A program made the translations under genes and the position numbers. A DNA stretch of 64,000 nucleotides, taken from IMG/VR virus record IMGVR_UViG_3300020438_004435; one strand, written 5' to 3'. The notes beneath the pieces were generated by a model that worked only from the letters and a program-made list of their open reading frames with translations, was not told the DNA's origin and made no database searches. Shown here piece by piece: positions 9,072-61,026 of this stretch. Position 1 is the first letter of the stretch. Every line of letters starts with the position of its first letter. Source of the DNA: a virus.

Positions 9072-9685
9072 CTTGGAGTTCTCCTTACTGGTCTGGTCGA
9101 TCTTTTATTAGTATTGACCTTTATATTATTTCTATTTGTATTGACCTTTATATTATTTCTATTTGTATTTACTTTAACATTATTTCTATTTGTATTTACT
9201 TTAACATTATTTCTATTTGTATTGATTTTTACATTATTTCTATTTGTATTAATCTTTACATTATTTCTATTTGTAGATTTTACTTTATTAATTGAAGGTC
9301 TTGGAGTATATGTTCTACCCTTGCCATTATTAAATTTGGATCCTCTAGGATTTCTTACTATTCTTGAATTATTTAATTGAATAGAAACATGTGTGTGAGA
9401 ACTATAAGTGTAAGGGGGTAGTATGGTATACCAATACCACCACGGATATAAATGTGGTACACCATAATAATAATAAAAATTGTTATGGAATCCCCAATAT
9501 GGTAAATCATCATGATAATAAACCTGTGTCGAGTGATCTCTGGAATCACAACATGAATGATCAGATAGACAATGTTGCCCTCTTTCCATTAATTCACAAT
9601 TATGAGCCTGTGAACTGTATGTGCCTTCATAGATTGTGCATCCTGACATCATTGCTAGACTTATTATTATAATTAAATTTTTCAT
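9068..9685 (-). CDS. Lipoprotein with a Tyr/Trp-rich segment and Asn/Arg-rich repeat tail
   Basis: MKNLIIIISLAMMSG-C lipobox; start more likely 9685 than 9700. Confidence 0.6.
   Translation of the reverse strand: MKNLIIIISLAMMSGCTIYEGTYSSQAHNCELMERGQHCLSDHSCCDSRDHSTQVYYHDDLPYWGFHNNFYYYYGVPHLYPWWYWYTILPPYTYSSHTHVSIQLNNSRIVRNPRGSKFNNGKGRTYTPRPSINKVKSTNRNNVKINTNRNNVKINTNRNNVKVNTNRNNVKVNTNRNNIKVNTNRNNIKVNTNKRSTRPVRRTPR
9111..9272. repeat. Six tandem 27-bp repeats (N-[IV]-K-[IV]-N-T-N-R-N), plus a partial seventh
   Basis: Units start at 9111, 9138, 9165, 9192, 9219 and 9246; consensus near gtattgacctttatattatttctattt. Confidence 0.9.
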
Positions 9686-9686
9686 A

Positions 9687-10316
9687 TTATTTTCCTTCAT
9701 GCATTTTATGATGTTCCCATGCTAAATCCGAAACCACCTTCATAAATTGTTTTCTAGCTTTTTTGTATATTGATTTATGTTTCGATTCCTTTAACCCTCT
9801 TTCAAATTTATCTAGGTCCACAGTTAGAAAGTTTTGTAGTGCTGTAATTTTACTAAATTCAGATCCACCATATTCGCTTACTAATTCAGCATCTCTATCT
9901 AGCATAGTAATTACTCTTTCCATTTCAGCTTCTGCCTTTTTTCTTTTTGCGGTAAGCTGTCGAGCTATATCCATATATTTTTTAGTATCCTTTCCTGCTG
10001 CCTTAGCTGCTTTGTATTTGTCTATATTAGCCAACATTACTAAATTTATTTTAGATACTGCATCATATGCTTTGGATATATCCTTTGCACCTACTTTTGC
10101 TTCTGTCTTCATGCCTAATTTACCTTTATATAATTTAACAAGTCTTGCATTGCCAGCTGATTGATGTTTTCTTAAAAGTCTTTTATGATCTTTATCAGGG
10201 TTAGCTGTAGTATGTTCGTATGGTCCATCCTTATATGTTACAGGCTTACCATCCTTCTTTGCCTTTTTCTTTTTAGCTATAGCAATAGCCGCATTTTGAG
10301 CTATTGATTTCCCCAT
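9687..10316 (-). CDS. Basic helical hypothetical protein
   Basis: 209 aa, coupled to both neighbours. Confidence 0.55.
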   Translation of the reverse strand: MGKSIAQNAAIAIAKKKKAKKDGKPVTYKDGPYEHTTANPDKDHKRLLRKHQSAGNARLVKLYKGKLGMKTEAKVGAKDISKAYDAVSKINLVMLANIDKYKAAKAAGKDTKKYMDIARQLTAKRKKAEAEMERVITMLDRDAELVSEYGGSEFSKITALQNFLTVDLDKFERGLKESKHKSIYKKARKQFMKVVSDLAWEHHKMHEGK

Positions 10317-11335
10317 TAGTATGCTCGTCCTAAAGTTTTAACATCAACATATGCTTTAGCTTTATCAAGTTTAGATAGTTCCATTTTCAATTTATTGAAT
10401 TCATCTTTAACTTCTTTAGCTTTGTTAGCCATTGATGATTTTTCATAGTCGACGCTATATTTAGCTTGATCTGGTTTATCTTTATACTTGGCTTTAACCG
10501 CTTCTATATTAGCTCCTGCTCGCATATATTCTTCGAATGCTCTAATCATATAATTATATCTATGTCCAATAGTTTTTACTGTATCAGCGTAATATGAATC
10601 TCTTGGAATAAATCCTTGTTTCATTTTAGTAAGCTTTTCTTGTAGAGCTGCTTCATACATTTTAGTAGCTGTTTCTAATAATTTTATTATTGGACCTTTA
10701 CCAGCTTCTCCTGCTTTTATAGTCAATGCTTTTCTATATCTAGCTATATTATCTTGTTTCATTTTTTTAGCGTCCATCATTGCCGTTGCACCTGCTTTTG
10801 CAGCTGCTCGATCTGCGATTTTCTGTTTTGCACCTCTAGCTGCTTCATCTGGATCTAAATGGTATACCTGTGCACCATCAATTTTCATTATATCTTTAAT
10901 AGAAGCAAATCCACGTTTATCTAATCCGATAAATGCTCTGCCTGATCCTGCTCCTGTTCTGATGCCTCTACCTATCCATACTCTTTTACCTTTAATTGTA
11001 ACCGCTAATAGTTGACCTGCTCCTATACGAGTTCTCCAGTCATATCTAGAGGAAGCTGGTATTTCTGTATCTTTTGAAGCTATTACTATATCAATACCTT
11101 TGTTATCTATTCGCGTGTCAGGACCCTTTACCATATCATCAGTAAGTTGATCCCATTGAACTCCATATTGTCTAGCCATATCATCTAAAAATGATTTGTC
11201 TTTACCCCATTTACCTACCTTTCCAAATAATGATGCTATTTTTCTAGATGCAAATTTTTCATTAAGAATTAATTTAGATTCCTTAATAATTGATGTTAAT
11301 TCTTCCTTGATAATTTTTCTAATAATTTTTTTCAT
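10316..11335 (-). CDS. Hypothetical protein with IIKEE...IIKE...ILNE leader (putative internal head protein)
   Basis: N-terminus MKKIIRKIIKEELTSIIKESKLILNE. Confidence 0.55.
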   Translation of the reverse strand: MKKIIRKIIKEELTSIIKESKLILNEKFASRKIASLFGKVGKWGKDKSFLDDMARQYGVQWDQLTDDMVKGPDTRIDNKGIDIVIASKDTEIPASSRYDWRTRIGAGQLLAVTIKGKRVWIGRGIRTGAGSGRAFIGLDKRGFASIKDIMKIDGAQVYHLDPDEAARGAKQKIADRAAAKAGATAMMDAKKMKQDNIARYRKALTIKAGEAGKGPIIKLLETATKMYEAALQEKLTKMKQGFIPRDSYYADTVKTIGHRYNYMIRAFEEYMRAGANIEAVKAKYKDKPDQAKYSVDYEKSSMANKAKEVKDEFNKLKMELSKLDKAKAYVDVKTLGRAY

Positions 11336-11341
11336 AATTTC

Positions 11342-11731
11342 CTAACCCTTAAATATTTGTTTTTTACCGCCATTATATACGTATGCATGGCCTTCAGTTA
11401 TAAGTGCATCATTAATACATATTTGTTTACCATCCTTATCCATAATAAATAGTTCTCCAAGGACTCTACCATATTTACCTAGACCATAAGATTTTAATCT
11501 AAAGTATCCTGGTTTATCACTTACTTCCTCTATTAATTGTTTATTTCTTGCTTTAGCAGCTAGACCTAATTTTTTTTCTTCAAGGTCTCTTGTTCGGCTT
11601 TCCCATGCATCAAGACCTTTATATCTGATTCTTTTTTTGACCCAAATATCAAACCCTACGTCAATCATTGCATCAACCGTATCACCATCAACTACTCTAT
11701 CTAACTTTGCTCTGTAAATATACTTTTCCAT
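11342..11731 (-). CDS. Thermonuclease (staphylococcal nuclease-like)
   Basis: RVVDGDTVD...RIRYKGLDAWE...GKYGRVLG...LITEGHAYVY motifs. Confidence 0.85.
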   Translation of the reverse strand: MEKYIYRAKLDRVVDGDTVDAMIDVGFDIWVKKRIRYKGLDAWESRTRDLEEKKLGLAAKARNKQLIEEVSDKPGYFRLKSYGLGKYGRVLGELFIMDKDGKQICINDALITEGHAYVYNGGKKQIFKG

Positions 11732-14700
11732 TATTTCCCTAAAACTATTCTTCTATTATATATTACGTTATTATATTCAATGTATAAATTATATACTCCT
11801 GGTTTATAATTTGCAATATCAATTGGCTCTTTAACATCCTTAATAAACATTATATTATTACCTAACATATCAGTAATACCAACATCAAATGAGCCTTTTG
11901 CCTCTATTATAAATAGGCCTTTTGTAGGATTAGGATATATTTTTATGCTATTTCTATCAATTAGATCTGTAGTAGATAAGGGATCTCCAAATGCACAATT
12001 ATTATATTGTGATTGACAAAAGTTATCCCATTGATTGTTTAAGCAATAAGGATCTACCTCATATACTACCCATGCATAACAGGTATCATTTAACCAATAC
12101 GGATTTCCAGCTCCTGTTACTGTATTTAGGTCATAGTATAAACAGCTACCATCATCAGTATTGGCTAGTGGATCATAATTGTTAACTATTACAGTATTAA
12201 ATCCTGGAATATAGTTTGGATAAGTATTATATAAATAACCTTGAAAGTCATAATCATCTGTACATCCGTAAACTGTTGCAATACAAGTTCCATTATCTAC
12301 ATTTGCTAAAGGATCATAATTAAATGCTGTTGAATCAGTACAACCAAATATCTGAGCTATACAAGGATCTGATACATCTGTTGATGATACCTGATTTGTA
12401 TTACAGGGTGCGCAATAATTAAGAGCTGGTAATCCATCTCCATTAAAATCATTACCTTGACCATCATCCATACATCCATATATAAATGGTACACAAACAT
12501 TAGCTGGTTGTGTATTTGCTAATGGATTATAATTAAACATTGTAGTATCCATGCATCCATAAACAAAAGGTATGCAAGATCCATTGTCTACATTTGCTAG
12601 TGGATTGTAATTAAACATTGTAATATCCATACATCCAAACACTTTTGTTATACATGTTCCATTTTCTGTATTTGCTAATGGATTATAATTAAGTGCTGGC
12701 AATCCATCTCCATCATAATCAATAACAATTCCATCATCCATACATCCTAATACTACTCCTATACAACTACCATCATCAATATTTGCTAGAGAATTATAAT
12801 TGAATGATATTGGATTCATACATCCATATACCGCTAGATCTGTACAGCTTCCATTATCGTAGTCTGCAGTAAATCCTTGAGTCCAGAATTGAAGATACAA
12901 TGGATCAGTACAACCTGGATTATAATAACATGAGCCATCTAATGTATTTGCTAGAGGGTTATAATTAGCTGCAGTTGCATCTGTACATCCATATATAAAT
13001 GGAATACATGTCCCATTATCAGTATTAGCTGCTGGATTATAATTCCACATTGTAGAATCCATACAACCATATATAAATGGTATACAACTACCATCGGCTA
13101 AATTAGCTTGTGGGTTATAGTTAAATTGTGTAGCATCCATACATCCATATATAACGGAATCAATACACGAGCCATCATCATAATCAGCTGTAAATCCTTG
13201 ATTCCAAAATTGTATAAAATTAGGATCAGTGCATCCAGGAGCATAATAACAAGAACCATCTGTTGTATTTGCAAGTGGATTAAAATTAGCAGCTGTCATA
13301 TCCATACACCCATATACAAAAGGAATGCAGGTTCCATTATCCGTATTGGCTAGTGGATTATAGTTAAACATAGTAGTATCCATACAACCATAAATATATG
13401 GAACACAGGACCCATTATCAATATTCGCATTAGCATTATAGTTGAACATTGTATTATCCATACAACCATATAATACAGAATCAACACAACTACCATCATC
13501 AAAATCCGCTACAAAACCTTGCGTATAAAATTGTAGGAAATTTGCATCAGTACAACCTGGATTATAGTAACAACTATTATCATTCGTATTTGCTAATTGA
13601 TCCCAATTTGCCGCAAGAGGATCAGTACAGCCGTATATAAATGGAACACATGTTCCGTTATCAGTATTGGCTAATGGATTATAATTCCACATTGTAGAAT
13701 CTGTACATCCATAGATATATGATACACAGCTGTTATCATTAGTATTAGCGTTAGGGTCATAATTTAACGCAGTAGGATCGGTACAACCATATATAAATGG
13801 TATACAGGTACCATTATCTGTATTGGCTAGAGGGTCATAATTAAATGCTGTTGTATCTGTGCAACCATAAATAAAAGGTTCACAACTTCCATTATCTGTA
13901 TTGGCTAATATATCATAATTCCACATAGTAGGATCAGTACAACCATATATAAATGGTATACATGAACTATCACTAGTATTTGCAAATACATCATAATTCC
14001 ACATCAATGGATCTATACATCCATAAATAAATGGAATACAACTTCCGTCATTAGTGTTTGCTAATGAATCATAATTATACATTGTAGAATCGGTACAGCC
14101 GTAAATATAAGGTATGCATGAACCATCATCTGTATTTGCTAATATATTATAATTTAATGCCGTTGAGTCTGTACATCCTAATTGTTCTGCTATACAACTT
14201 CCATCGTCTGTATTTGCTAAGGCATTATAATTTATAGCAGTTGAATCTGTACATCCATATAGGAAAGGTATGCATGTTCCATCATTTGTATTTGCTAATG
14301 GATCATAATTTAACATTGTAGAATCTGTACATCCATAAACATAAGGTAGGCATGAACCATTATCAGTATTGGCGGTTATATCGTAGTTCCACATTGTAGA
14401 GTCCATACAACCATATATTACTGGAATACATGAATAATCTTCTGTATTACAAAAAGAACAATAATTAAATGCTGCTGGATCCAAACATCCAAATACTTTT
14501 GTTATACATGGATCTGTTGTATCAACTACAGAGGTCCATTGAACTGTAGCATATTGATCGAAATTAAACATAGTTGAATCAGTACAACCAAATATTGCAT
14601 ATGTACTACAAGATCCATCATTAAAGTCTGCAACGTATCCTTGTGTATGATATTCTAGATAAGCTGGATCAGTACATCCAGGATTAAAATAACAAGATGT

Positions 14701-16851
14701 ATCTGATGTATTTGCTAATGGGTTATAATTTACTGCTAATGGATTAGTACATCCGAATACTCTCGGTATGCAAACATTACCACAAAGAGCGGTTCCAGTA
14801 TAATAATGTTGATATAGGTTATATTCTAAAATTGGATCAGTATAAGGATTAGTTCCACCTGTTGCAATAACAGTTCCTATAGGATTTATTATTGCAAACA
14901 TACATTGTTCCGATGTGGTTTGGGAGTTACCAAATGAGTAGAAAAATACTTTTACTTCGTGTGCTGTATTCAAAGGTATAGCAGTAGTAAATGTTGAACC
15001 GGTATCAACAGTGAAAGGACCCCAATGATTATTACCTTGAGTTACTACTAAAAATGATCCTGCCCATCCATTACCTGCCCAATCAGTTAAAACCAAAGTA
15101 TTAAGACAACCAGGATTTAACTGCATGCTAGTTACAGTTGGATCATAATTAAATGCTGCTGGATCTGTACAACCATAAGTGTGAGGTGTTATACAGAATG
15201 TGGTGTCCATCTGATTAGCAAGAGGATTATATTCTACAAAATTAGGATTAGTACATCCTACAATTAAATTTGTTATACAGCTATTTACGGTTCCGGTATC
15301 AGAATAATTATATCCAAAATCTCCTCCTCCCATCGAAATAGTATCACAGTCAGTATATACTATCCATTCTCCATCTATACCACCAAATTGAGCTCCACCC
15401 AATCCATCACCGTATGAATCATTTATTTGAAACTCAATAGGCATTCCATTATCTATACAGATTTCTTGTGTTACTATTGCTCCTGTAGGAAATCCTGAAT
15501 ATGTTCCTTGTGTAACTTGAGTATGTATTCCAACGGAGTCAAATAATATCCATCCTGTTTCATTAGCATATTGATCTAACATTATTTCGATTGTTAGTTT
15601 TGTTTTTCCTGGAGAACATACAATGCCTCCTCCACCTACACATGTTCCATCATCTTGAGTTGCTGCTGGATTATAGTTAGTTGATGTTGAATCCATACAA
15701 CCTGTAATAAATAAACAGCTACCATCATCTAATCCTGCTGTATCAACATAATTTATTGCTAGTGAATCGGTACAACCTTCGATGTATTCACAAGGTGAAA
15801 TATACCAATAATCCCCTACTGTAACAGGAGCATATAATCCACCACTAGGATCAAAAGTCCAGATATTTCCATCAGCTTGTGATTGATTTCTTACTACATA
15901 AACTAGAATAGCGGGACTATTGCAATTTTGTGGCCAGTCAATACCATCAACAAAATACTCGTTACCATCTAACCATATTTTATTTCCTACATCCCATGCT
16001 GTTATATTACCAATCCAATCCATAAAGGATATACCAAAGTAGTTTGCAGTCCATTGTTGAGTGTTACAAGTTCCACCTGCAGCTACATATCCACTTACAA
16101 AACCTTGAGTAGCAGTTGAATCATAATTGTAAGCTATAGGATCTTGACAACCGAATATATAAATACAAAGTCCATTGTCTTGAGTAGCAAGTGAGTCATA
16201 ATTTTCTGCAATAGTGTCCATACAACCATAGAGGTATGTACAGCTTCCATCATTACCAGTAGCCAAAGAATCATAATTTTCTGCAATACTATCCGTACAA
16301 CCCCAGATTGGAGGGTTACCTATTTCTACATCATCTATAGCAATATCACTAGTCCAACTAATTCCTGTTTCTGCTTCGAATGATACTAAAAAATTACCCA
16401 CTAAACCTAAACTGTCGAGTGGGTATGCTTTGAAAAGCCAAAAATCTCCTTGATCACCCACGATTGAATCTAAATGAAACCATCCATTATCATCGTGAAT
16501 AAAAATATCTAGACGACCCATGTCGTCTCCATACATATGATACCAGAATTTTAATGCTTGACCTGGTGTTCCTGATATATCGAATGAATCGGTTTGGCAT
16601 ACAAATAATTTTTCTGGATGATTAGGAACAGATGATTCTACATACCAGTAATTACCACCACCTGTCATATCATCCGAAGGGCCTGTATTTACCGACCAAG
16701 TAGGACCTGAATTTAATATCCAATCACCATCATCGTCTTGTATGTTTTCTAAATCTCCACCGGTATCAAAATTTTCTATCCATGGAAATGAGGTTATTTG
16801 TGTATGACCTAATAAAGGTATCAGTAGTAGTAGTAGTATTAATTTTTTCAT
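11731..16851 (-). CDS. Type IX secretion system cargo-like protein: signal peptide, MAM-like domain, about 38 GC(T/M)D Cys repeats, C-terminal T9SS type A sorting domain
   Basis: MKKLILLLLLIPLLGHTQ signal; WILNSGPTWSVNTGPSDDMTGGGNYWYVESS (MAM-like); C-terminal IKIYPNPTKG...IANYKPGVYNLYIEYNNVIYNRRIVLGK. Confidence 0.85.
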   Translation of the reverse strand: MKKLILLLLLIPLLGHTQITSFPWIENFDTGGDLENIQDDDGDWILNSGPTWSVNTGPSDDMTGGGNYWYVESSVPNHPEKLFVCQTDSFDISGTPGQALKFWYHMYGDDMGRLDIFIHDDNGWFHLDSIVGDQGDFWLFKAYPLDSLGLVGNFLVSFEAETGISWTSDIAIDDVEIGNPPIWGCTDSIAENYDSLATGNDGSCTYLYGCMDTIAENYDSLATQDNGLCIYIFGCQDPIAYNYDSTATQGFVSGYVAAGGTCNTQQWTANYFGISFMDWIGNITAWDVGNKIWLDGNEYFVDGIDWPQNCNSPAILVYVVRNQSQADGNIWTFDPSGGLYAPVTVGDYWYISPCEYIEGCTDSLAINYVDTAGLDDGSCLFITGCMDSTSTNYNPAATQDDGTCVGGGGIVCSPGKTKLTIEIMLDQYANETGWILFDSVGIHTQVTQGTYSGFPTGAIVTQEICIDNGMPIEFQINDSYGDGLGGAQFGGIDGEWIVYTDCDTISMGGGDFGYNYSDTGTVNSCITNLIVGCTNPNFVEYNPLANQMDTTFCITPHTYGCTDPAAFNYDPTVTSMQLNPGCLNTLVLTDWAGNGWAGSFLVVTQGNNHWGPFTVDTGSTFTTAIPLNTAHEVKVFFYSFGNSQTTSEQCMFAIINPIGTVIATGGTNPYTDPILEYNLYQHYYTGTALCGNVCIPRVFGCTNPLAVNYNPLANTSDTSCYFNPGCTDPAYLEYHTQGYVADFNDGSCSTYAIFGCTDSTMFNFDQYATVQWTSVVDTTDPCITKVFGCLDPAAFNYCSFCNTEDYSCIPVIYGCMDSTMWNYDITANTDNGSCLPYVYGCTDSTMLNYDPLANTNDGTCIPFLYGCTDSTAINYNALANTDDGSCIAEQLGCTDSTALNYNILANTDDGSCIPYIYGCTDSTMYNYDSLANTNDGSCIPFIYGCIDPLMWNYDVFANTSDSSCIPFIYGCTDPTMWNYDILANTDNGSCEPFIYGCTDTTAFNYDPLANTDNGTCIPFIYGCTDPTALNYDPNANTNDNSCVSYIYGCTDSTMWNYNPLANTDNGTCVPFIYGCTDPLAANWDQLANTNDNSCYYNPGCTDANFLQFYTQGFVADFDDGSCVDSVLYGCMDNTMFNYNANANIDNGSCVPYIYGCMDTTMFNYNPLANTDNGTCIPFVYGCMDMTAANFNPLANTTDGSCYYAPGCTDPNFIQFWNQGFTADYDDGSCIDSVIYGCMDATQFNYNPQANLADGSCIPFIYGCMDSTMWNYNPAANTDNGTCIPFIYGCTDATAANYNPLANTLDGSCYYNPGCTDPLYLQFWTQGFTADYDNGSCTDLAVYGCMNPISFNYNSLANIDDGSCIGVVLGCMDDGIVIDYDGDGLPALNYNPLANTENGTCITKVFGCMDITMFNYNPLANVDNGSCIPFVYGCMDTTMFNYNPLANTQPANVCVPFIYGCMDDGQGNDFNGDGLPALNYCAPCNTNQVSSTDVSDPCIAQIFGCTDSTAFNYDPLANVDNGTCIATVYGCTDDYDFQGYLYNTYPNYIPGFNTVIVNNYDPLANTDDGSCLYYDLNTVTGAGNPYWLNDTCYAWVVYEVDPYCLNNQWDNFCQSQYNNCAFGDPLSTTDLIDRNSIKIYPNPTKGLFIIEAKGSFDVGITDMLGNNIMFIKDVKEPIDIANYKPGVYNLYIEYNNVIYNRRIVLGK
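12140..16310 (-). repeat. Array of about 38 roughly 26-aa repeats GC(T/M)DxxAxNYxPxANxDDGSC, with a 321-bp higher-order repeat
   Basis: Counted by hand in the translation; the distinctive YYxPGCTD..QF..QGF.ADYDDGSC unit has its Pro codon at 13560, 13239 and 12918 (321 bp apart). Confidence 0.85.
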
Positions 16852-16853
16852 TT

Positions 16854-19265
16854 TTATAAATTCCCTTTAAGTGATATTATGAAATTTCTTCCTGGTGCAG
16901 AAATACCAGATGCGAAAGTTCTGTAGTGTTGATCTAGAATATTTTCAATTCCAAATTGTATTTTAAGGTTATCATTAACCTTGTATTGAGCCGAAGTATT
17001 TAGCGTCCACCAAGAAGGGTAACCTTCATCGGTTCCTAAATCGTCATTATCGACACCGCTAGAATTCATTTCTTCTATATACTTCCATGCAGTGTATATT
17101 CCCCAAATTTTATATTCTAGCTTGCCTGTCTTAATCTTAAATAATGATTTTCCAAATGCAGGAGGTATGTGACCTAGTGGTTCATTATTAGATACATCCC
17201 ATCCTTTTTGCCAAGTAAATGATTCCTCATAGAATAACAAATCTTTGTATAATCTTGATTTTACACCAAATGACCATCCATAAATATATGCCTCAGGTGA
17301 GTTCATTAATGTCTGAACATTTACATCTTCATACTCATGTATTTGAGAATATCCTAAATCTTGTTTTACAATTGCATCCTTCAGGTGTGTATAAAATACG
17401 TTACCTGTACTTTGCATTCTTGGCTTTTTCCAGGTAATACTCATTTCACCATTATATGCATACTCTGGAGTTAGATCCGGATTAGGTATAACCATATTAC
17501 CTTTCTTAACAAATACCTTCCCATAATCATCTATATTTGGATTTCTAAATCCTGATGAAGCTACCCAATCAAATTTCCATTTTTCCGATGGTTTATAAAT
17601 TAAATTAAGATTACCTGTAAGAGCCCCATTATTAAATTCAATCTCATCCGTTACAAATACAGGATCAGTATCTCTAAACACCATATCACCTATAACTCTT
17701 GAATACCTTAATCCAGCATTCCAAACAAAAAATCTATTTACCTCTTTTTTATATGAACTATATAATGCTGCAGTTGATAAATTACTACCACCAGATGGAT
17801 ATCTTGCTTGAGTGCCTTCAGTTGCTGTTGATAATACATTATTATGGGTTAATTCTATTCCATAAACTAATTTATCTAATGAGAAGTCCCAATTAAAACT
17901 AAATACATCTACATCTATATATGTGTTATTATATTCCTCTGATTGATATTTTCTAGTAATCCTATCCTCTTCTATAAATTGATATGCTAATGTAATATTA
18001 TGACTATTAAAGAATTTATTTGTGGTATATGTGTTTATATCTAAAGAAGACATAAATCTTGTTTGAGGTCCATAAGACCATTCACTCCATTTTAATGTTC
18101 CATCCTTATATTCCTGAAGGTTATCATATCTTGGTATATTTGTTGTAGTAGAGAATTGATTGTTAAATCTTACAAAAACATTTTCTGATGTTCTCCATGC
18201 CATGTTGTTTAATATATCTATTTGTCTATATCCTGTGCCGATTTGTATATAAGGATTTTCATTTGATACCATCTGATCATTTTCATCCATATAATAGTTT
18301 ACTAATCCCCAATCACTATATCCATGAGGTCTCCATTGACCCATTTTAAGATCTCCAAATTCCTTAGCTGTTATAGAAAGAAAATTAGCAAAATTATCAC
18401 CACCAATATTATTACTTACATGAAAGGAGTATTCATTGGCTGCAGATCCATATCTAACTTCCGCATTTGTTTTATAGTATGTTTTATCATTTTTACTAAA
18501 TACTGGCTTTTTAGTATAAAAATGAACTACTCCTCCTAATGCATCACTACCATAAATTGTTGATGATGGACCAAAAACCACTTCAACTATTTCTAATGCA
18601 TTTGGATCTACTGTTAAAGCATTTTGTAAATGACCTGAACGATAAATTGCATTATTCATTCGGACTCCATCTACTACCAACAATACTCTATTAGCTTCAA
18701 ATCCTCTAATGATAGGTGAACCTCCGCCTAATTGAGATTTTTGTATAACTACACCTTGATTTGCAGTAAGAAGATCAGCTGTTGTAGATGCATTTGCATT
18801 TTGAATTTGTTTTACATCCAGGGATTGTATTTGGTAGGCTACATTTTCTCGAAGCTCTCTTGCCTTACTAGCTGATATAACGACATCTTCTAAATATTTT
18901 GATGATTGAGCTAATAAGATTACATAATCCTTCTTAGCCATTTCCTCTTTACTAATGTGCCGGGATTCATAACCAATAAAAGATATTGTAATTAATATAA
19001 CATCCGACTTAAATATAGAAAGATCTGCTTGACCATTTATATCTGTAGTAGTTCCTTTGCGTATAGAGTCTTTGAATGTCGTATTATTTCCAGGACTTAT
19101 AAGTAATTGTTTAGATACAATATTAGCAAAAGGAATAGGTTCTAATGTTTGCTGATCCTTTAGCGTTAAGGTTTGTGCGTTAATTGTTTGAGTCATTAGG
19201 AGTAATATTAAAAATACTATATAACCTAATAACAATTTGGAAGATGACCATTTTGTTGTTTTCAT
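16854..19265 (-). CDS. TonB-dependent outer-membrane receptor, Bacteroidota type
   Basis: Signal peptide; N-terminal CarboxypepD_reg-like domain (EPIPFANIV..GTTTDING..ISFIGYE); plug GSPIIRGFEANRVLLVVDGVRMNN...IEVVFGPSSTIYGSDALGGVV; C-terminal NILDQHY...APGRNF. Confidence 0.92.
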   Translation of the reverse strand: MKTTKWSSSKLLLGYIVFLILLLMTQTINAQTLTLKDQQTLEPIPFANIVSKQLLISPGNNTTFKDSIRKGTTTDINGQADLSIFKSDVILITISFIGYESRHISKEEMAKKDYVILLAQSSKYLEDVVISASKARELRENVAYQIQSLDVKQIQNANASTTADLLTANQGVVIQKSQLGGGSPIIRGFEANRVLLVVDGVRMNNAIYRSGHLQNALTVDPNALEIVEVVFGPSSTIYGSDALGGVVHFYTKKPVFSKNDKTYYKTNAEVRYGSAANEYSFHVSNNIGGDNFANFLSITAKEFGDLKMGQWRPHGYSDWGLVNYYMDENDQMVSNENPYIQIGTGYRQIDILNNMAWRTSENVFVRFNNQFSTTTNIPRYDNLQEYKDGTLKWSEWSYGPQTRFMSSLDINTYTTNKFFNSHNITLAYQFIEEDRITRKYQSEEYNNTYIDVDVFSFNWDFSLDKLVYGIELTHNNVLSTATEGTQARYPSGGSNLSTAALYSSYKKEVNRFFVWNAGLRYSRVIGDMVFRDTDPVFVTDEIEFNNGALTGNLNLIYKPSEKWKFDWVASSGFRNPNIDDYGKVFVKKGNMVIPNPDLTPEYAYNGEMSITWKKPRMQSTGNVFYTHLKDAIVKQDLGYSQIHEYEDVNVQTLMNSPEAYIYGWSFGVKSRLYKDLLFYEESFTWQKGWDVSNNEPLGHIPPAFGKSLFKIKTGKLEYKIWGIYTAWKYIEEMNSSGVDNDDLGTDEGYPSWWTLNTSAQYKVNDNLKIQFGIENILDQHYRTFASGISAPGRNFIISLKGNL

Positions 19266-19269
19266 TTCA

Positions 19270-19470
19270 CTACTCCTTATGGTTTTTGCTAAACCAATAA
19301 TCTATAACCTTACCGAATGCTGTAAGAAATGCTCCAATAATAATAAAAAGAAGATCTCTTGTTGTTCCAGTAATGTTTTCAAATACTATCAATTTCAATA
19401 TGTACCAAAAGATAGCAAAAATTGCGGCTGATAATATAAGCCTTGTTAATATATCCCAAATAGCATTCAT
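19270..19470 (-). CDS. Small two-TM membrane protein (holin-like topology)
   Basis: 66 aa with two hydrophobic helices and a short charged C-terminus. Confidence 0.45.
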   Translation of the reverse strand: MNAIWDILTRLILSAAIFAIFWYILKLIVFENITGTTRDLLFIIIGAFLTAFGKVIDYWFSKNHKE

Positions 19471-20807
19471 TACAGCTTATATTTAATACCAAATGTTGTT
19501 TTATAATCCTGCACACCATAATAATTTGATATTTCTCCTGATATTGCAAAACTAAATTTCTTACCTAATTTTATTCCAGCCTCTAAACCGCCATCATATT
19601 CAAAAACATTATCTGTTGGTGCCCAATCGGCTTCCATACCAAATGCTTTTATTTCCTCACCATTACCAGAGGTTATCGTTTTAATTGATGGAACCTTTAG
19701 GTCTGTTTGTTGTGGATAAAAATTTACCCAAACATTAAAGAAATAATATTCAGATTCATTAAATACATCTAATCCTATAACTGGTGAGCCTGTGTATGCC
19801 CATAATCTTCTTTTAGCATTATATTCATTTGTAATATATGGTTCGGCTAATACAGGGTTTAATATTTCCGTATAAGTTCCTACTAATTCATCATTAGCCC
19901 ATTCTCCATTATTATCAAAATCATAAAATACATTTTGTGCGGCTGATGTAGTATCCCAATATGTATTTTCAAAGAATCCTATAAATTCATCAGTATAAGC
20001 CGCCCAAGGTGTTGCTCTAACATTATATCCTACTGTAAGATTGACATTATTATTAACCCTATACATTAATCTAATACCACTCTTTGCAAATTCCTGATTG
20101 GATCCATAATCTTCAATTAAAGCATTTACTCTATTTTTATGATCCGCTTCTATCCAAAATCCATAACGAGTAAAGATTTTAGTATATCTTATATATTGCC
20201 TTGATTCCGAGTATTCCCTTCCATCATTTCGAATCCAATCCCATGTAATTTTATATTCCATGCCTTGTTTATTGAAAGCATATGAATCCTTTGATTCATC
20301 CTTTTTCAATTCTTCATCATCTCTACCAAATAAATTCTGAGGACATGTAACACATTGATCGGATGCTTTTTTCTTTATACCAAATGAATATACATAATCA
20401 TCTGGAATAGATAGGTCGGCAAAATCCTTAGGCCTAGACATAAACCCACCGAATTGTAATTCAATTGATTCAAATAAATTTGTCTTCCCCCACTTTATAA
20501 TATCCTCAGTACTAATATCCCTTAAATTTATACTATCCCATCTAACCTCTTTACGAATATCTGCAAAAGAAAAGGTTAATTTTGTTTGCAATCCAAGTGT
20601 GTCGGTTTTTTTTCTTTCTCTTTCACAAGCCATATAATTTTTCCAATCAGTAATAAAGGAAGATATTTCTGGAGACATAATATAGTCCCCAGAATACTTA
20701 TATACCTTTTTATCCCAATTAGGAAAGATTGGTTTTTCACATACTACCTGTGAAGATACAACCTGCGCCAATAGAATGAATAATAATATTAATACCGTTT
20801 TTTTCAT
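19470..20807 (-). CDS. Secreted protein, probable outer-membrane beta-barrel
   Basis: MKKTVLILLFILLAQVVSSQ signal; alternating-pattern strands; C-terminal YKTTFGIKYKL resembles a beta-signal. Confidence 0.55.
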   Translation of the reverse strand: MKKTVLILLFILLAQVVSSQVVCEKPIFPNWDKKVYKYSGDYIMSPEISSFITDWKNYMACERERKKTDTLGLQTKLTFSFADIRKEVRWDSINLRDISTEDIIKWGKTNLFESIELQFGGFMSRPKDFADLSIPDDYVYSFGIKKKASDQCVTCPQNLFGRDDEELKKDESKDSYAFNKQGMEYKITWDWIRNDGREYSESRQYIRYTKIFTRYGFWIEADHKNRVNALIEDYGSNQEFAKSGIRLMYRVNNNVNLTVGYNVRATPWAAYTDEFIGFFENTYWDTTSAAQNVFYDFDNNGEWANDELVGTYTEILNPVLAEPYITNEYNAKRRLWAYTGSPVIGLDVFNESEYYFFNVWVNFYPQQTDLKVPSIKTITSGNGEEIKAFGMEADWAPTDNVFEYDGGLEAGIKLGKKFSFAISGEISNYYGVQDYKTTFGIKYKL

Positions 20808-20812
20808 TTATC

Positions 20813-20977
20813 TTACAATTTGCAATCGCGTCTGCAATATGCTAAATATGCTGCAGCTGCTAGTGCTGGCAATGCAACTATCCAATCACCTTTAGCTAAT
20901 TCCCAACCTGCAAATAATGCTACAGCGTATCCACCATAACAATTTGCATAACATTTTACTTTGTCTAAAATTTCCAT
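20813..20977 (-). CDS. 54-aa hydrophobic membrane protein (below the ORF-track cutoff)
   Basis: MEILDKVKCYANCYGGYAVALFAGWELAKGDWIVALPALAAAAYLAYCRRDCKL; GGAG upstream; fills the gap. Confidence 0.7.
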   Translation of the reverse strand: MEILDKVKCYANCYGGYAVALFAGWELAKGDWIVALPALAAAAYLAYCRRDCKL

Positions 20978-20989
20978 TTGATTCTCCGT

Positions 20990-21367
20990 TTATTTAATTA
21001 TGTCGTGACCACCGAGCGTTTTTAATTTAAGGTCTATTGCTTTGAACTCTACGTCAATTTCTTTTGTAATATCAAATACTTTTTTTTCTAGAGTGTTAAT
21101 TGTTTTAATTTTTTTATCTAATCTTTGTTCTACCGTCTCAATCTCCAGTTGTAATTTATCTTCTAGAGTTACGAATTTATCTAAAACCATTGCTGTTTCT
21201 TCTTCAAAAGCTTCATCAAATATTTTTTGTTTTTCCTCGAATATATGGATTTGATTTTTCATTGCATTAAATTCTCCATATATAATACCTAAGGTAAATA
21301 CAAATCCAATAAGGGTAATCCACATTTGTGGATCTATTTTTTCTAAATAGCTTTTTGTTACAGGCAT
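20990..21367 (-). CDS. Single-TM coiled-coil protein
   Basis: WITLIGFVFTLGIIY helix followed by a heptad-rich charged region. Confidence 0.55.
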   Translation of the reverse strand: MPVTKSYLEKIDPQMWITLIGFVFTLGIIYGEFNAMKNQIHIFEEKQKIFDEAFEEETAMVLDKFVTLEDKLQLEIETVEQRLDKKIKTINTLEKKVFDITKEIDVEFKAIDLKLKTLGGHDIIK

Positions 21368-21368
21368 T

Positions 21369-21956
21369 TTATCTCTCCAACGTTATTTCTCTGTACTGGT
21401 AATGAGCTCCAGTTAGTTCTAATTCATCGTCATAACGTCTTATATTTTCAAGTACCCACTTGTTATAAGTTTTATATGTAGTTGTCCACTCTTCTGTATC
21501 TAACCCTAAATAATATGTAGCTGGAACATATACATAATCATAAGGTGTTGTATTGCAAAGTGGTTTTTCTGCTTTCCAATTCCATCCTAGAATGGATGAA
21601 TCTTGTAGTGTTGAGTTGTGATTATTACCCCATCTCATATTGGATGGATATCCTTCTGCACGTGTTCCGTATATTAAATCAAATTCTGCTGCACCATTAA
21701 ATATTACGGTTCCAATATCAAATGTAGAATCATTAACATATTCCACCCAGGCAGATACATCTAATCTGAATCCTTCCTCTAATAAATAAAATTTAGTGAT
21801 ATTCCATTCACCTGCAATCTCAGTAGGATCTACTGCCTCTGGTAAAGTAAATGGCTCTACAGGTTCTTTTTCACATGATACTACTAATAGTGTCCAAAAT
21901 ATAACCAGTATAGCCAGATAAATTTTATTAAGATTTGATTTGACAAACATTTGCAT
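21369..21956 (-). CDS. Lipoprotein, Bacteroidota style (lipocalin-like start)
   Basis: LAILVIFWTLLVVS-C-EKE lipobox followed by IAGEWNITK. Confidence 0.65.
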   Translation of the reverse strand: MQMFVKSNLNKIYLAILVIFWTLLVVSCEKEPVEPFTLPEAVDPTEIAGEWNITKFYLLEEGFRLDVSAWVEYVNDSTFDIGTVIFNGAAEFDLIYGTRAEGYPSNMRWGNNHNSTLQDSSILGWNWKAEKPLCNTTPYDYVYVPATYYLGLDTEEWTTTYKTYNKWVLENIRRYDDELELTGAHYQYREITLER

Positions 21957-21968
21957 ATAAATAACTTT

Positions 21969-22487
21969 TTATCTTTTACGGTTGATGATTTCCATCATAT
22001 GCATCTTTACAAATGCTATATCTCTTGTCATATCCGTCATTGGTGTCATATTTGCTCCCGTACAACCTAATTCATATGCAAATAAAGCTACATTATCAAT
22101 TGATGTTTCTATTTGTTCTGGAGCTGCTGAATCTTCTTCTACTACATCCTTCTCTATACCAAAAACTATATCAAGAAATTTTGCTGCTTTAGCTGCATAT
22201 ACCTGAGCTAATTTATTTGAATTTTCTGGTGTTATTTTTTTGAATAATAATACAGCCGATTTGCATATATCAAAATGTTTTGTTTGATAACCAAATACTT
22301 CAATATTTTCTCCGCTTCCAAAATGACCTGGCTTATCACCTTCTTCTTGTTCATTCATTCTTTTGCCATATGTATCAGTTACTGCGAATGGAGGATTATC
22401 CTTCATTGTATTAACGGCTCCTATTCTTCCACCGTTTACACGCATCATTTTTTCACTTAATAAGTCTTTTAATTTTAATCTTTTCAT
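21969..22487 (-). CDS. Hypothetical protein with LKLKDLLSE leader
   Basis: Leader motif; GYQTKHFDICKSA module. Confidence 0.5.
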   Translation of the reverse strand: MKRLKLKDLLSEKMMRVNGGRIGAVNTMKDNPPFAVTDTYGKRMNEQEEGDKPGHFGSGENIEVFGYQTKHFDICKSAVLLFKKITPENSNKLAQVYAAKAAKFLDIVFGIEKDVVEEDSAAPEQIETSIDNVALFAYELGCTGANMTPMTDMTRDIAFVKMHMMEIINRKR

Positions 22488-22506
22488 TTTATTTCCCTTT
22501 TAATAA

Positions 22507-22917
22507 TTAGGATGCCTTTCCAATAACGTTTACTCTTTTAAGAGCTGCTAGAAATTTATCTGTATCTACATAAGCCTCACCAATGTCTTTTGTTTTCATA
22601 GAAACTCCCTTACCTGCATAAGGTTCTGTTAATTTATCAACATATAAATGTGTAACATTAACTTCCTTATCTCTTAAATAAAGTTGTCTTTGGTGTAGCT
22701 TAAATTGTCCTTCCTTTGTTTCAATAACGTGATATTGCACATGAACAAACATTTTACCACCTTCAAAAGATTTAATTCTAGCTAATGCTTTTCTATCTGG
22801 AGCTACTCCTCTGAATCCTATTTTATTTAATATACTACCTACAGCACTTGGATTAACTTCACGATCTACCTGGAAATTCATTGATGTAAATTCTTTTAAC
22901 AATTGTTTTAATTTCAT
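22507..22917 (-). CDS. Hypothetical protein with MKLKQLLKE leader
   Basis: Leader motif; GAGG upstream. Confidence 0.55.
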   Translation of the reverse strand: MKLKQLLKEFTSMNFQVDREVNPSAVGSILNKIGFRGVAPDRKALARIKSFEGGKMFVHVQYHVIETKEGQFKLHQRQLYLRDKEVNVTHLYVDKLTEPYAGKGVSMKTKDIGEAYVDTDKFLAALKRVNVIGKAS

Positions 22918-22930
22918 AATTATCTACCTC

Positions 22931-23290
22931 TTATGGTTTAGTTGCCGCTGTTTGGCTCATTAATACGGTTGCCGAGCAACCATTGGTAGTAACTTCCTGT
23001 ATCGAAAATTCGTACAGTGATCCTGATGTAGCATTAAATCCTTCTGATGGATCTAAATTTATTGAACCACTGCCGGTTAATGTTACTATCGTTCCTGGTC
23101 CTGTTGTTCCTGAATCACCAACCATATTATGAAATATGATTCCACCTGCTCCAGCCATTGAGCCTGTAAACGCTACTGTATGGCCTGCTTGTATGTGATG
23201 TGCTTTTATCCATTTTCCAGGATGGTACATTATATTGCTAAATAGGCTAGCCGTTGGGTTTACTGGTGCGCTATATCCTTCATATGACAT
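22931..23290 (-). CDS. Gly/Thr/Ser-rich small protein, possibly structural
   Basis: Composition; AGGAG upstream. Confidence 0.45.
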   Translation of the reverse strand: MSYEGYSAPVNPTASLFSNIMYHPGKWIKAHHIQAGHTVAFTGSMAGAGGIIFHNMVGDSGTTGPGTIVTLTGSGSINLDPSEGFNATSGSLYEFSIQEVTTNGCSATVLMSQTAATKP

Positions 23291-23293
23291 AAT

Positions 23294-24145
23294 TTATTCT
23301 CCTAATTCTTTTATCATTTCTATTACTGCAGGTTGTGGAGATACATCAAATTTATCCGGTCTGACATTTGTATGAGTCCATACGCCTTCAGCTCCTGCTA
23401 ATGCTTGTTTATTTAATTCAAATGCTTTACCTTTTAATGCTTCCTTATAGGAATCTATAGCATAATTTGTATTACTCGTTGATCCTCCTGCTAATCCATC
23501 CTCTGTTAATGCTTTACCATTACCACCAATGTATCCTTGAACATTAAGCCATTTTTGTTGACCAAGTGTATCCAATCCTTCTGGCATAATAGATGGTCCA
23601 TCTAATAACATTTTCATGCCTTTGGATAAATCTATATTAAAATCCTTACCTAATTTGGTAACCAGATCTTTGGTTGCTTGTATTTGTGCTGGAGTATATG
23701 CATGATAGTATCTGAATCCTCTAAATTCGTATCCAAGATCTACTACATCTGCTGCTGGTACCTTGCTATTTACATAAGTAAAATATTCGTCATCCTTCTT
23801 AGTAAGAGGCCCATAATTACAAATTTCTATACCAATACTTTCCTGATTTAGTTTTTTATTATTTCTAGCCTTTATTCCTAAATGGTGTGCCCACTTTTCT
23901 GGTGGATGGCATTCAACAACTACTCCATCAAAATCAGTGTTTGCGTTTCGAGTGGATTTACCACCTATTACATAAGCGGTTGCGATGTGACGAACTCCAC
24001 CTGAACCTGTTTTGTCTCTTTCCCATGAAGCTACTACCCAATCAGGTCTATGAGAACCTGCTGTATGATGTATGTAAATTGTCTTTTTAGTTACAACGTC
24101 GTGGTAATATTCTTCGTTTTCAAGATATTGTTTCTTTATATCCAT
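23294..24145 (-). CDS. N-acetylmuramoyl-L-alanine amidase (Amidase_2), probable endolysin with a peptidoglycan-binding insert
   Basis: IYIHHTAG...AYVIGG...WAHHLG...SIGIEICNYG...GVWTHTNVRPDKFDVSP; insert QKWLNVQGY...LTEDGLAG. Confidence 0.85.
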   Translation of the reverse strand: MDIKKQYLENEEYYHDVVTKKTIYIHHTAGSHRPDWVVASWERDKTGSGGVRHIATAYVIGGKSTRNANTDFDGVVVECHPPEKWAHHLGIKARNNKKLNQESIGIEICNYGPLTKKDDEYFTYVNSKVPAADVVDLGYEFRGFRYYHAYTPAQIQATKDLVTKLGKDFNIDLSKGMKMLLDGPSIMPEGLDTLGQQKWLNVQGYIGGNGKALTEDGLAGGSTSNTNYAIDSYKEALKGKAFELNKQALAGAEGVWTHTNVRPDKFDVSPQPAVIEMIKELGE

Positions 24146-24184
24146 AAGTCTTCCTTATCTGTTTAGTATATAATGTATTTTCGC

Positions 24185-24196
24185 TATAAATAAATA
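24185..24196 (-). promoter_or_regulatory. Candidate late promoter (minus strand TATTTATTTATA) ahead of the endolysin/late region
   Basis: Intergenic, about 40 nt upstream of the endolysin ATG, at the border between glycosylation and late genes. Confidence 0.35.
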
Positions 24197-24199
24197 TCA

Positions 24200-24234
24200 A
24201 AAACCAATGAAAAACAGTCTTTTTTTATGGTTTT
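24200..24234 (-). terminator. Weak imperfect hairpin (AAAACCA...TGGTTTT) at the module boundary
   Basis: 7-bp outer arms plus an A5/T5 inner stem around the stop at 24225; AT-rich and unstable. Confidence 0.2.
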
Positions 24235-24404
24235 ATAATGGTTATATCATCTAATGATACCCAAAATAACCTACCCATTTCATCAATTACTCGCGCTTTA
24301 TTATCACTTTCATTAATTTCATCTATTATAACGGATGATTGTTTATATAATGCTCCATTAACTGATATAATGGTTTTATTTATAATTGCTTTAGTTCTAT
24401 CCAT
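24225..24404 (-). CDS. 59-aa hypothetical protein (below the ORF-track cutoff)
   Basis: MDRTKAIINKTIISVNGALYKQSSVIIDEINESDNKARVIDEMGRLFWVSLDDITIIKP; overlaps the upstream stop. Confidence 0.65.
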   Translation of the reverse strand: MDRTKAIINKTIISVNGALYKQSSVIIDEINESDNKARVIDEMGRLFWVSLDDITIIKP

Positions 24405-24636
24405 TTGACCTCACTTTCAAATTTTTAATACGATCTAAAAATTCCGATATGGAAATGGTTTCATTTTTATCTGTACGTATCTCTATGTCGGGTAATTTAT
24501 CTGGTTCTCTATCTACTATCCTCATTAAAGCGGTTAATCCTTGATCACCCCAAAATACACCAAATCCATTATCAGATCCTATTGATAGATATTCATCCGG
24601 TCTATCTGGTTTAAGTAAAAAATATTCTATATTCAT
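24397..24636 (-). CDS. Hypothetical protein
   Basis: 79 aa, ATGA-coupled to the upstream gene. Confidence 0.6.
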   Translation of the reverse strand: MNIEYFLLKPDRPDEYLSIGSDNGFGVFWGDQGLTALMRIVDREPDKLPDIEIRTDKNETISISEFLDRIKNLKVRSNG

Positions 24637-28321: not shown

Positions 28322-28322
28322 A

Positions 28323-57237: not shown

Positions 57238-57738
57238 TTATATACTTTTTAATTCTTCGTCTGTAAAAAATTGTTTTAGATTTGGTCTGAAATAATTAAT
57301 TGATTTCATCACCTTATTATCACTACTTCTATATACCACCCATCTGTCACCAACCTTTTCATAATGACAAGGATGGCCTTTTTCTTCTGATCTTAAAGCA
57401 ACAGTTGCCTTTGCTTCACTTTCTGTAGCACATGATTTAGACATATTTGAAGCTTGTACCTCTTTATATGCTGGTTCTATTCTATCTTTAAGACCATGCA
57501 ACATAGCTCCATTTCCTAATGATACATAAGTAATATCCGCTAATGCATCTAATACTTCTACTATATCACCCTTTTCACATGCTTCTTTATATTCCGCTAA
57601 TTCTTCCATAATAAAATCATATACAAACATCCATTCCTTTTTATCTGGAATATTAGGTGTATAATTATTTGGTTTGCCGAATGTAGCATTAAATTCCTCT
57701 ACCTCACTTATAAATGGTACTTTTTTATTATCTTTCAT
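57238..57738 (-). CDS. MazG-like/all-alpha NTP pyrophosphohydrolase
   Basis: FIMEELAEY..EVLDALADITY..EVQASNMSK. Confidence 0.85.
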   Translation of the reverse strand: MKDNKKVPFISEVEEFNATFGKPNNYTPNIPDKKEWMFVYDFIMEELAEYKEACEKGDIVEVLDALADITYVSLGNGAMLHGLKDRIEPAYKEVQASNMSKSCATESEAKATVALRSEEKGHPCHYEKVGDRWVVYRSSDNKVMKSINYFRPNLKQFFTDEELKSI

Positions 57739-57739
57739 T

Positions 57740-59323: not shown

Positions 59324-59329
59324 ATTTTA

Positions 59330-61024: not shown

Positions 61025-61026
61025 AT

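What the first reader, a model, noticed from the sequence alone, without database searches (positions are those of the whole stretch)
11342..21956. Phage-encoded Bacteroidota cell-envelope operon: T9SS cargo, TonB-dependent receptor, beta-barrel and lipoprotein inside the late region
Seen: eight same-strand genes with gaps of 0-13 bp (lipoprotein, TM coiled-coil, small TM protein, signal-peptide beta-barrel candidate, 2-TM protein, TonB receptor, 1706-aa T9SS-CTD protein, thermonuclease), flanked on both sides by phage genes with the KLKDLLxE leader, with a TATTTATA motif at the first start. Known: CTD type A signals route proteins through type IX secretion, which is essentially limited to Bacteroidota and close relatives. 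Inferred: the phage uses host T9SS, BAM and Lol to install a multi-protein surface apparatus on infected cells (nutrient capture, adhesion, or superinfection exclusion). I know of no characterised phage module like this, but cannot search.
Basis: partly seen in the sequence, partly recalled or inferred. Interest (0 to 1): 0.88.

Follow-up and report, generated by a model that had tools for sequence, protein, structure and literature searches.

The report
Jumbo-phage cell-envelope module with TonB receptor
A giant ocean phage carries a real, conserved block of genes for proteins that its host's export machines would place in the cell envelope (a long type IX-secreted surface protein, an outer-membrane barrel, a lipoprotein and a TonB-dependent importer swapped with host bacteria), so it probably refits the surface of the cell it infects, though nobody has tested this.

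Summary
Eight tightly packed minus-strand genes encode a lipocalin-like lipoprotein, a TM coiled coil, two small TM proteins, an outer-membrane beta-barrel, a TonB-dependent receptor (TBDR), a 1706-aa Cys-rich protein with MAM and T9SS type A domains, and a cytoplasmic nuclease. It is not a chimera: an independent contig aligns across the block and both flanks, and all genes are under purifying selection (dN/dS 0.05-0.17). The seven envelope genes recur, rearranged, in a second jumbo-phage lineage whose polymerase is only about 25% similar, so the block moved between phages. The TBDR clade includes native porZ-recO-linked alleles of marine Bacteroidota, implying at least two phage-host exchanges. 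The block is a TBDR-bearing offshoot of a very common marine-phage module (T9SS cargo, barrel, TM coil, thioredoxin-like protein), often near lysis genes. The TATTTATA at the first start is not conserved. Best reading: late surface remodelling of the infected cell with an importer added (0.45); rival: spanin-like lysis core (0.25). Phage T9SS cargo is published (Cryophage); I found no paper on the module. This scan noted the same cassette (e1-5403351) and the core module before on other DNA.

The parts
21369..21956 (-). 195-aa outer-membrane lipoprotein (signal plus invariant Cys28), lipocalin/YceI-like beta-barrel predicted at low confidence
   Evidence: Bacteroidota DUF5004/Lipocalin_4-like clusters, 0.92-0.94; pLDDT 51; best Z 6.3, not decisive; 82 sequence clusters
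20990..21367 (-). 125-aa type II inner-membrane protein: N-terminal TM (15-31) then coiled coil; positional analogue of the 94-aa TM-coil gene of the wider module; i-spanin-like topology
   Evidence: homology to the 94-aa family not detected (HHalign prob 6)
20813..20977 (-). 54-aa small TM protein with Cys residues
   Evidence: conserved in all cassette copies; relatives near the cargo in 12 of 45 other phage loci
19470..20807 (-). 445-aa outer-membrane beta-barrel with signal peptide and N-terminal helices; divergent member of a large marine-phage barrel family
   Evidence: AF2 pLDDT 70; OmpG Z 15.2, rmsd 3.7 over 212 residues; autotransporter/FapF Foldseek E 1e-5; HHalign to the P0182 family prob 98.3, E 2e-14; no bacterial full-length homologue found
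19270..19470 (-). 66-aa protein with two TM helices (holin-like topology, function unknown)
   Evidence: (phrog_1544, E 4e-4)
16854..19265 (-). 803-aa TonB-dependent receptor, orthologue of the porZ-recO-linked Bacteroidota TBDR; TonB box intact; substrate unknown
11731..16851 (-). 1706-aa T9SS type A cargo: signal peptide, MAM, about 32 Cys-rich repeats (94 Cys), swappable internal domains, conserved Cys-rich pre-CTD domain, CTD
   Evidence: 29 D-(S/T)-hydrophobic O-glycosylation-type motifs vs 8.5 in shuffles (inflated by the repeats)
11342..11731 (-). 129-aa cytoplasmic SNase-family nuclease (phrog_452), loosely linked, not an envelope protein
24190..24198 (-). Candidate late-promoter motif (G)ATATTTAT upstream of the amidase; no intergenic gap above 26 bp follows down to 2938
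   Evidence: kept in 7 of 7 relatives, and the same motif lies 15-16 nt before the cargo start in 5 of 5 copies of the second lineage; not enriched window-wide (5 vs 4.8 expected); inferred only
23294..24145 (-). Amidase_2 endolysin candidate, first gene of the putative transcript, 1.3 kb upstream of the block
   Evidence: E 4e-12

Best explanation
A lytic jumbo phage of marine Flavobacteriales carries a mobile, late-expressed module that refits the envelope of the infected cell. SHOWN: gene content, folds or domains, conservation, purifying selection, movement between phage lineages, TBDR exchange with hosts. INFERRED from known Bacteroidota export rules: host Sec and BAM insert the barrel and TBDR, Lol places the lipoprotein, T9SS exports the cargo by its CTD, and host TonB-ExbBD energises the receptor. 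INFERRED from co-occurrence: the barrel, the inner-membrane coiled coil and a periplasmic or outer-membrane partner form a trans-envelope scaffold; the long disulphide-rich, probably O-glycosylated cargo is shown on the surface as a fibre with exchangeable heads, possibly docked on the barrel through its conserved pre-CTD domain; it shields the cell (rival phages, grazers) or sticks it to particles or new hosts before lysis. In this lineage a host-derived TBDR and a lipocalin-like lipoprotein were added, most likely to import a micronutrient (iron, haem or B12 class, unknown) during the long build of a large virion.
For: Continuous 18-kb alignment (84.5%) to an independent contig over 11270-29247. 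Seven genes kept together, in a different order, in L001, L002/L012, L004, L011, L100, L185. G001 and G002 carry gp23 and bS21, while their polymerases are 72% alike but only 23-29% to this window's over short stretches. dN/dS 0.05-0.17. All 45 cargo loci with enough flank have barrel, TM coil and Trx-like genes within 3 kb. The pre-CTD domain is 67-80% conserved while the CTD is 37-40% and the heads are swapped. A slot between barrel and TBDR holds varying exported proteins. A single origin of the phage TBDRs is rejected (AU p 1.4e-5), with each phage subclade sister to a host allele, as expected if the receptor must match the host's TonB. A ~22-kb sugar-modification block lies next door, and Chen et al. 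(PMC9723584) propose surface remodelling for bS21 phages.
Against: No expression, localisation or binding data. The barrel family often occurs without cargo (3 of 37 records with a CTD match, many of them fragments) and almost never with a TBDR (1 of 37; 0 of 78), so the parts need not be one machine. Late timing fits nutrient import poorly. The core sits near endolysins or holin-like genes in many phages, which fits lysis. Close relatives lack the block at this site, so it is dispensable there or sits elsewhere in their genomes.
Confidence: 0.45

Rival explanations
1. The core (TM coiled coil plus barrel, with the lipoprotein or Trx-like partner) is an unconventional spanin that breaches the outer membrane at lysis; the 66-aa 2-TM protein is a holin and the amidase the endolysin. 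The cargo and TBDR are separate passengers in the same late transcript.
For: The 125-aa protein has i-spanin topology. In the wider family the barrel is followed by a TM-coil gene in 78 of 78 loci, with endolysin genes near in many (23 and 16 loci for two families). The amidase is 1.3 kb upstream here. Kongari et al. (PMC6139136) note that an OMP could act as an o-spanin and list spanin-less Bacteroidota phages.
Against: In the second lineage no homologue of this window's amidase lies within 10 kb of the TBDR. Relatives with the same amidase lack the block at this site. The lipoprotein is a 167-residue beta-rich fold and its gene precedes the coil gene, unlike typical o-spanins. The strict cargo-to-barrel link (45 of 45) is unexplained.
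Confidence: 0.25
2. The block is chiefly a nutrient-capture complex, like SusCD, BtuBG or HmuYR: the lipocalin-like lipoprotein is the lid or carrier for the TBDR and the cargo captures substrate.
For: TBDR and lipoprotein are both specific to this variant (1 of 78 other cargo loci has a lipoprotein homologue, none a TBDR). Best NCBIfam and PDB matches are haem-type receptors. The lipoprotein model resembles lipocalins and TbpB (Z about 6). A ferredoxin precedes the TBDR in L100.
Against: Haem-receptor scores are below cut-off (210 vs 317 bits) and the His between the FRAP- and NPNL-like motifs is absent in 31 of 31 sequences. The host orthologue has no lipoprotein partner at its native locus. 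The core occurs widely without any receptor.
Confidence: 0.17
3. The TBDR allele and lipoprotein act on phage receptors: they displace or block the host's own receptor to exclude superinfection or to stop progeny binding to debris (as T5 Llp does with FhuA; from my own knowledge).
For: The phage gene is a divergent allele of a host chromosomal TBDR (70% to the closest host copy) and alleles were exchanged at least twice. Late timing fits progeny protection.
Against: Plug, TonB box and barrel are all under strong purifying selection (dN/dS about 0.07), as for a working transporter. No evidence that this TBDR is a phage receptor.
Confidence: 0.1
4. The block is host DNA misassembled into a phage contig, or a decaying passenger.
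For: All domains are of Bacteroidota type.
Against: Independent contigs span both junctions; barrel and lipoprotein have no close bacterial homologue in the searches run; codon use is phage-like; purifying selection.
Confidence: 0.01

Closest known systems
Phage-encoded T9SS type A cargo of 'Cryophage' (Bellas et al. 2020, PMC7468147)
   Same: Phage genes with a T9SS type A CTD, presumed to use the host system; cargo varies between phage variants.
   Different: Cryophage cargo are an endoglucanase, a GH39 and a PA14 protein, and the passages found mention no TonB receptor. Here a Cys-rich repeat fibre is tied to a phage barrel, TM coil, lipoprotein and TBDR.
Two-component spanins (lambda Rz/Rz1; Kongari et al. 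2018, PMC6139136)
   Same: Type II inner-membrane coiled coil next to an outer-membrane lipoprotein, in a late region near an endolysin.
   Different: The lipoprotein is large and beta-rich, the gene order is reversed, and a barrel, a T9SS cargo and a TBDR are added; no sequence match to spanin families appeared in Pfam, NCBIfam or PHROGs.
porZ-recO-linked TonB-dependent receptor of Bacteroidota (uncharacterised; annotated as haemoglobin/transferrin/lactoferrin receptor)
   Same: Same protein family; two marine host lineages lie inside the phage clade at the native locus.
   Different: In the phage it has left porZ and recO and sits with phage-specific envelope genes.
TBDR-surface lipoprotein pairs of Bacteroidota (SusCD, BtuBG, HmuYR; from own knowledge)
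   Same: A TBDR and an outer-membrane lipoprotein in one operon.
   Different: Not SusC, SusD or HmuY by profile; the genes are not adjacent; haem His motif absent; binding untested.
bS21-encoding large phages of Bacteroidetes (Chen et al. 2022, PMC9723584)
   Same: G001 and G002 carry bS21 and a gp23-type capsid; the paper proposes surface (LPS) remodelling against superinfection.
   Different: Its main text does not mention TonB receptors or T9SS; its phages are from freshwater.

Membership tests
T9SS type A cargo | N-terminal Sec signal peptide | tested here: met
   basic start plus hydrophobic stretch at residues 1-17 (hydropathy only, no SignalP)
T9SS type A cargo | C-terminal type A CTD above curated cut-off | tested here: met
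   PF18962 28.5 vs 27; TIGR04183 26.4 vs 23; homologues 44-46 bits
T9SS type A cargo | Export through T9SS, CTD cleavage by PorU, surface attachment | not testable with these tools
   needs expression in T9SS-positive and T9SS-null strains
TonB-dependent receptor | Plug plus C-terminal barrel, TonB box, intact frame | tested here: met
   PF07715 E 1e-21, PF00593 E 2e-28; TonB-box-like motif at about 126-132; ends in Leu here, Phe in 25 of 31
Haem/haemoglobin TBDR (ShuA/HmuR type) | Score above TIGR01785/TIGR01786 cut-off and His between FRAP and NPNL motifs | tested here: not met
   210 vs 317 and 200 vs 324 bits; no His in that loop in 31 of 31
Outer-membrane beta-barrel | Signal peptide, amphipathic barrel fold, C-terminal beta-signal | tested here: met
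   C-terminus Y-K-L
PorV/PorQ/PorP-type T9SS shuttle barrels | Sequence or specific fold match to PorV/FadL-like or PorP families | tested here: inconclusive
   no profile hit; the T9SS translocon chain 6h3i_F scores Z 10.3, among many generic barrels and below OmpG at 15.2
Two-component spanin | Type II IM protein with periplasmic coiled coil | tested here: met
   20990-21367: TM 15-31; coiled-coil-type weak Pfam hits
Two-component spanin | Short o-spanin lipoprotein embedded in, overlapping or just after the i-spanin gene | tested here: not met
   the lipoprotein gene is upstream, longer than the coil gene, and predicted as a beta-barrel
Two-component spanin | Needed for outer-membrane disruption at lysis | not testable with these tools
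   needs complementation or knockout
SusCD/HmuYR utilisation pair | SusD- or HmuY-family lipoprotein adjacent to the TBDR | tested here: not met
   no Pfam or NCBIfam hit for the lipoprotein; four genes separate it from the TBDR start
Widespread marine-phage cargo-barrel-coil-Trx module (unpublished as far as found) | Homologous barrel and homologous cargo C-terminal region | tested here: met
   HHalign prob 98.3; 411 IMG/VR stretches related to the cargo C-terminus
Widespread marine-phage cargo-barrel-coil-Trx module (unpublished as far as found) | 94-aa TM-coil family and secreted thioredoxin-like gene | tested here: not met
   the 125-aa coil shows no detectable homology (prob 6) and no Trx gene lies in the block; a Trx-like CTD-like protein fills the slot in L011 and L185

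The most novel reading that the evidence does not exclude
Lytic marine jumbo phages build a multi-protein machine in the host envelope that joins a T9SS-delivered surface fibre, its own anchor barrel, an inner-membrane link and a working host-matched TonB importer, and they shuttle alleles of this chromosomal TBDR between distant Flavobacteriales lineages. This would be a new class of phage system: a virus-built surface and uptake apparatus.
Probability: 0.3. Interest if true: 0.88.

Novelty: new variant of a known kind. Interest (0 to 1): 0.68.

Why it matters
Flavobacteria drive the turnover of algal organic matter in the ocean, and their phages usually have no recognised way to handle the outer membrane. 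A module found in hundreds of marine phage contigs, which uses the host's type IX secretion and in jumbo phages gains a full TonB importer, suggests that infected cells are given a new surface and perhaps a new uptake route. It gives testable handles on three open questions: how Bacteroidota phages without spanins cross the outer membrane, whether phages supply micronutrient importers as cyanophages do for phosphate, and what the conserved recO-linked TBDR transports.

Tried and rejected
No own genome held. The Atlas fold library was absent. Single-sequence scans of IMG/VR with the TBDR and the 119-aa gene found nothing; alignments were needed. GenBank phages hold no barrel or cargo match and only plug-level TBDR matches. 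PADLOC gave nothing of note. The lipoprotein model is low-confidence, so its fold matches are leads only. The direction of TBDR transfer is unresolved: recO and porZ of the two host loci are no closer to each other than to an outgroup, which leaves phage-to-host replacement open, but sampling is thin. The mixture-model tree timed out; FastTree and LG+G4 were used, and P0066-68 have a deviant composition. The phage group in the AU test was named after a first tree had been seen, and several of its rows were taken as phage without a context check. Rejected: TATTTATA at 21963 as the operon promoter; the nuclease as an envelope part; chimera. Literature searches found no description of the module; the library lacks most subscription papers.
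Full report
Observation. The window is a stretch of an AT-rich large phage, all genes on the minus strand, with PolB, clamp, clamp loader, GroEL, 7-deazaguanine genes, a long sugar-modification block and many small proteins with a KLK..LxE leader. The 1706-aa protein has a MAM domain and a T9SS type A CTD above both curated cut-offs, the 803-aa protein is a complete TonB-dependent receptor (TBDR), and the 129-aa protein is an SNase-family nuclease without a signal peptide. The 445-aa protein is predicted as an outer-membrane barrel with N-terminal helices (pLDDT 70; OmpG Z 15.2). The 195-aa lipoprotein has an invariant Cys28 and a low-confidence lipocalin-like fold. The TATTTATA at the first start overlaps the ATG and survives in only 1 of 7 relatives.

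It is phage DNA. GC3 and codon use match the flanking phage genes. An independent contig (L008) aligns continuously at 84.5% over window 11270-29247 and continues into the downstream leader gene; L188, L189, L194 and L224 span the upstream junction. Against L008 every gene of the block has dN/dS 0.05-0.17, like the flanking genes. The searches returned 68 clusters for the TBDR at 47% identity or more, 49 for the barrel and 82 for the lipoprotein.

It is mobile. The seven envelope genes recur in the order cargo, lipoprotein, coil, barrel, variable slot, TBDR, two small TM genes on contigs of 232-298 kb (L001, L004, L011, L012) and on L100 and L185; L186 holds the barrel-to-TM part. The two IMG/VR records carry a gp23-type capsid gene and bS21. 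Their polymerases are 72% alike but match this window's only at 23-29% over short stretches, whereas cassette proteins are mostly 55-84% identical (the small TM proteins 40-74%). In this window's own lineage, relatives with an 81-90% identical amidase and the same flanks have no cassette at this site (L211 shows 10 kb without it). So the block is an accessory insertion that has crossed between distant phage lineages. The variable slot holds a Trx-like protein with a short CTD-like tail, an Omp28 protein, small OMP-like proteins or a ferredoxin. In the cargo, head domains and CTD differ between copies (37-45%) while the Cys-rich pre-CTD domain is 67-80% conserved.

The receptor comes from, or goes to, the host. 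The phage TBDRs form a fully supported clade on a long stem, and two bacterial lineages lie inside it, each at the native porZ-recO-TBDR locus among housekeeping genes. One cluster contains a Flavobacteriales MAG protein. One origin of the phage copies is rejected (AU p 1.4e-5), so there were at least two exchanges. Direction is unresolved. The TonB box is intact, and no TonB_C match was found in the two phage records, so host TonB would be used. The substrate is unknown: haem-type profiles score best but below cut-off, and the usual loop His is missing in 31 of 31 sequences.

It is an offshoot of a much commoner module. The barrel is a remote member (HHalign 98.3%, E 2e-14) of a phage barrel family with 221 IMG/VR hits. 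That barrel is accompanied by a 94-aa TM-coil gene in 78 of 78 loci and a secreted thioredoxin-like gene in 75, with endolysin and nuclease genes often near. The cargo C-terminus has at least 411 viral relatives; all 45 loci with enough flank have barrel, coil and Trx-like genes within 3 kb, 14 have the nuclease, 12 the 54-aa TM gene, and none of 78 has the TBDR. Conversely only 3 of 37 barrel-bearing records had a CTD match and 1 a plug match (many are fragments). Cargo therefore seems to depend on the barrel core, but not the reverse, and the TBDR with the lipocalin-like lipoprotein is a jumbo-phage addition.

Timing. An ATATTTAT motif precedes the amidase in 7 of 7 relatives, and no gap above 26 bp follows through the block into the leader-gene region. 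The same motif lies 15-16 nt before the cargo start in 5 of 5 copies of the other lineage and before several leader-bearing genes. It is not enriched window-wide. Late expression is thus inferred, not shown.

Mechanism. The best-supported reading (0.45) is late remodelling of the infected cell's envelope: a barrel, coil and lipoprotein scaffold, a T9SS-exported disulphide-rich fibre with exchangeable heads, and an added host-matched importer. Routing through Sec, BAM, Lol and T9SS follows from established Bacteroidota biology (PMC4804311, PMC9143113, abstracts); complex formation and purpose are inference. Rivals are a spanin-like lysis core with passengers (0.25; PMC6139136 allows that an OMP could act as an o-spanin), a pure nutrient-capture complex (0.17) and receptor blocking (0.10).

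Known versus new. Phage-encoded T9SS cargo was reported for Cryophage (PMC7468147). bS21 jumbo phages of Bacteroidetes are described, with proposed LPS remodelling but no mention of TonB receptors or T9SS in the main text (PMC9723584). Phage TBDRs exist unstudied in databases (phrog_5687; a BFVD entry). I found no paper on this cassette or its core module. Earlier notes of this scan describe the same cassette in another genome (e1-5403351) and the core module several times; these are not independent support. Verdict: real, conserved, mobile, functionally untested; a new variant of phage-encoded host-envelope cargo, with a 0.3 chance of being a new class of virus-built surface and uptake machine.

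Noticed in passing
window 9068-9700 (-): A second lipoprotein-like gene (likely start at the second Met, Cys after a hydrophobic stretch) with a W/Y/H-rich region and tandem NRNNVK-type repeats, 1.6 kb downstream of the block; conserved in L008; similar proteins lie next to the barrel in L135, L160 and L262.
   Followed up: partly
window 24633-47161 (-): About 20 sugar-nucleotide, glycosyltransferase and methyltransferase genes directly upstream of the amidase; could glycosylate the cargo, the virion or the host surface.
   Followed up: no
L101-L180 and L256-L333 (IMG/VR loci): Very common marine-phage module of barrel, 94-aa TM coil and secreted thioredoxin-like gene, with or without a Cys-rich T9SS cargo; the barrel has no Pfam or PHROG family.
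   Followed up: partly
L007:9300-12322 and L099:9328-12346: Chromosomal recO-linked TBDR alleles of two marine Bacteroidota nest inside the phage clade although their recO (24%) and porZ (36%) are not especially close; possible phage-to-host allele replacement.
   Followed up: partly
L192:7167-7753 and L193:11237-12219: Close relatives of this phage have a different cargo-like gene directly at the insertion site, ahead of any lipoprotein gene; the contigs end before the rest can be seen. L188 has a cargo with different head domains while its neighbours are about 90% identical.
   Followed up: partly
L100:9669-9986 and L209:12511-12819: A phage 4Fe-4S ferredoxin sits directly before the TBDR in L100 and among leader genes in L209; Fe/Mn SOD lies within 10 kb of the cassette in L001, L004 and L185.
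   Followed up: no
L093:1456-3294 and L094:427-2259: The gp23-type capsid genes of G001 and G002 are about 610 aa, with the Pfam match split by a long insertion.
   Followed up: no
window 57238-63497 (-): folE, queE, queC, queD and related genes (7-deazaguanine pathway), already noted by other readers.
   Followed up: no
L257:6520-12224: Intermediate arrangement: a homologue of this window's lipoprotein (E 2e-33), then nuclease, cargo, common-type barrel, 94-aa coil and Trx-like gene, with no TBDR.
   Followed up: partly
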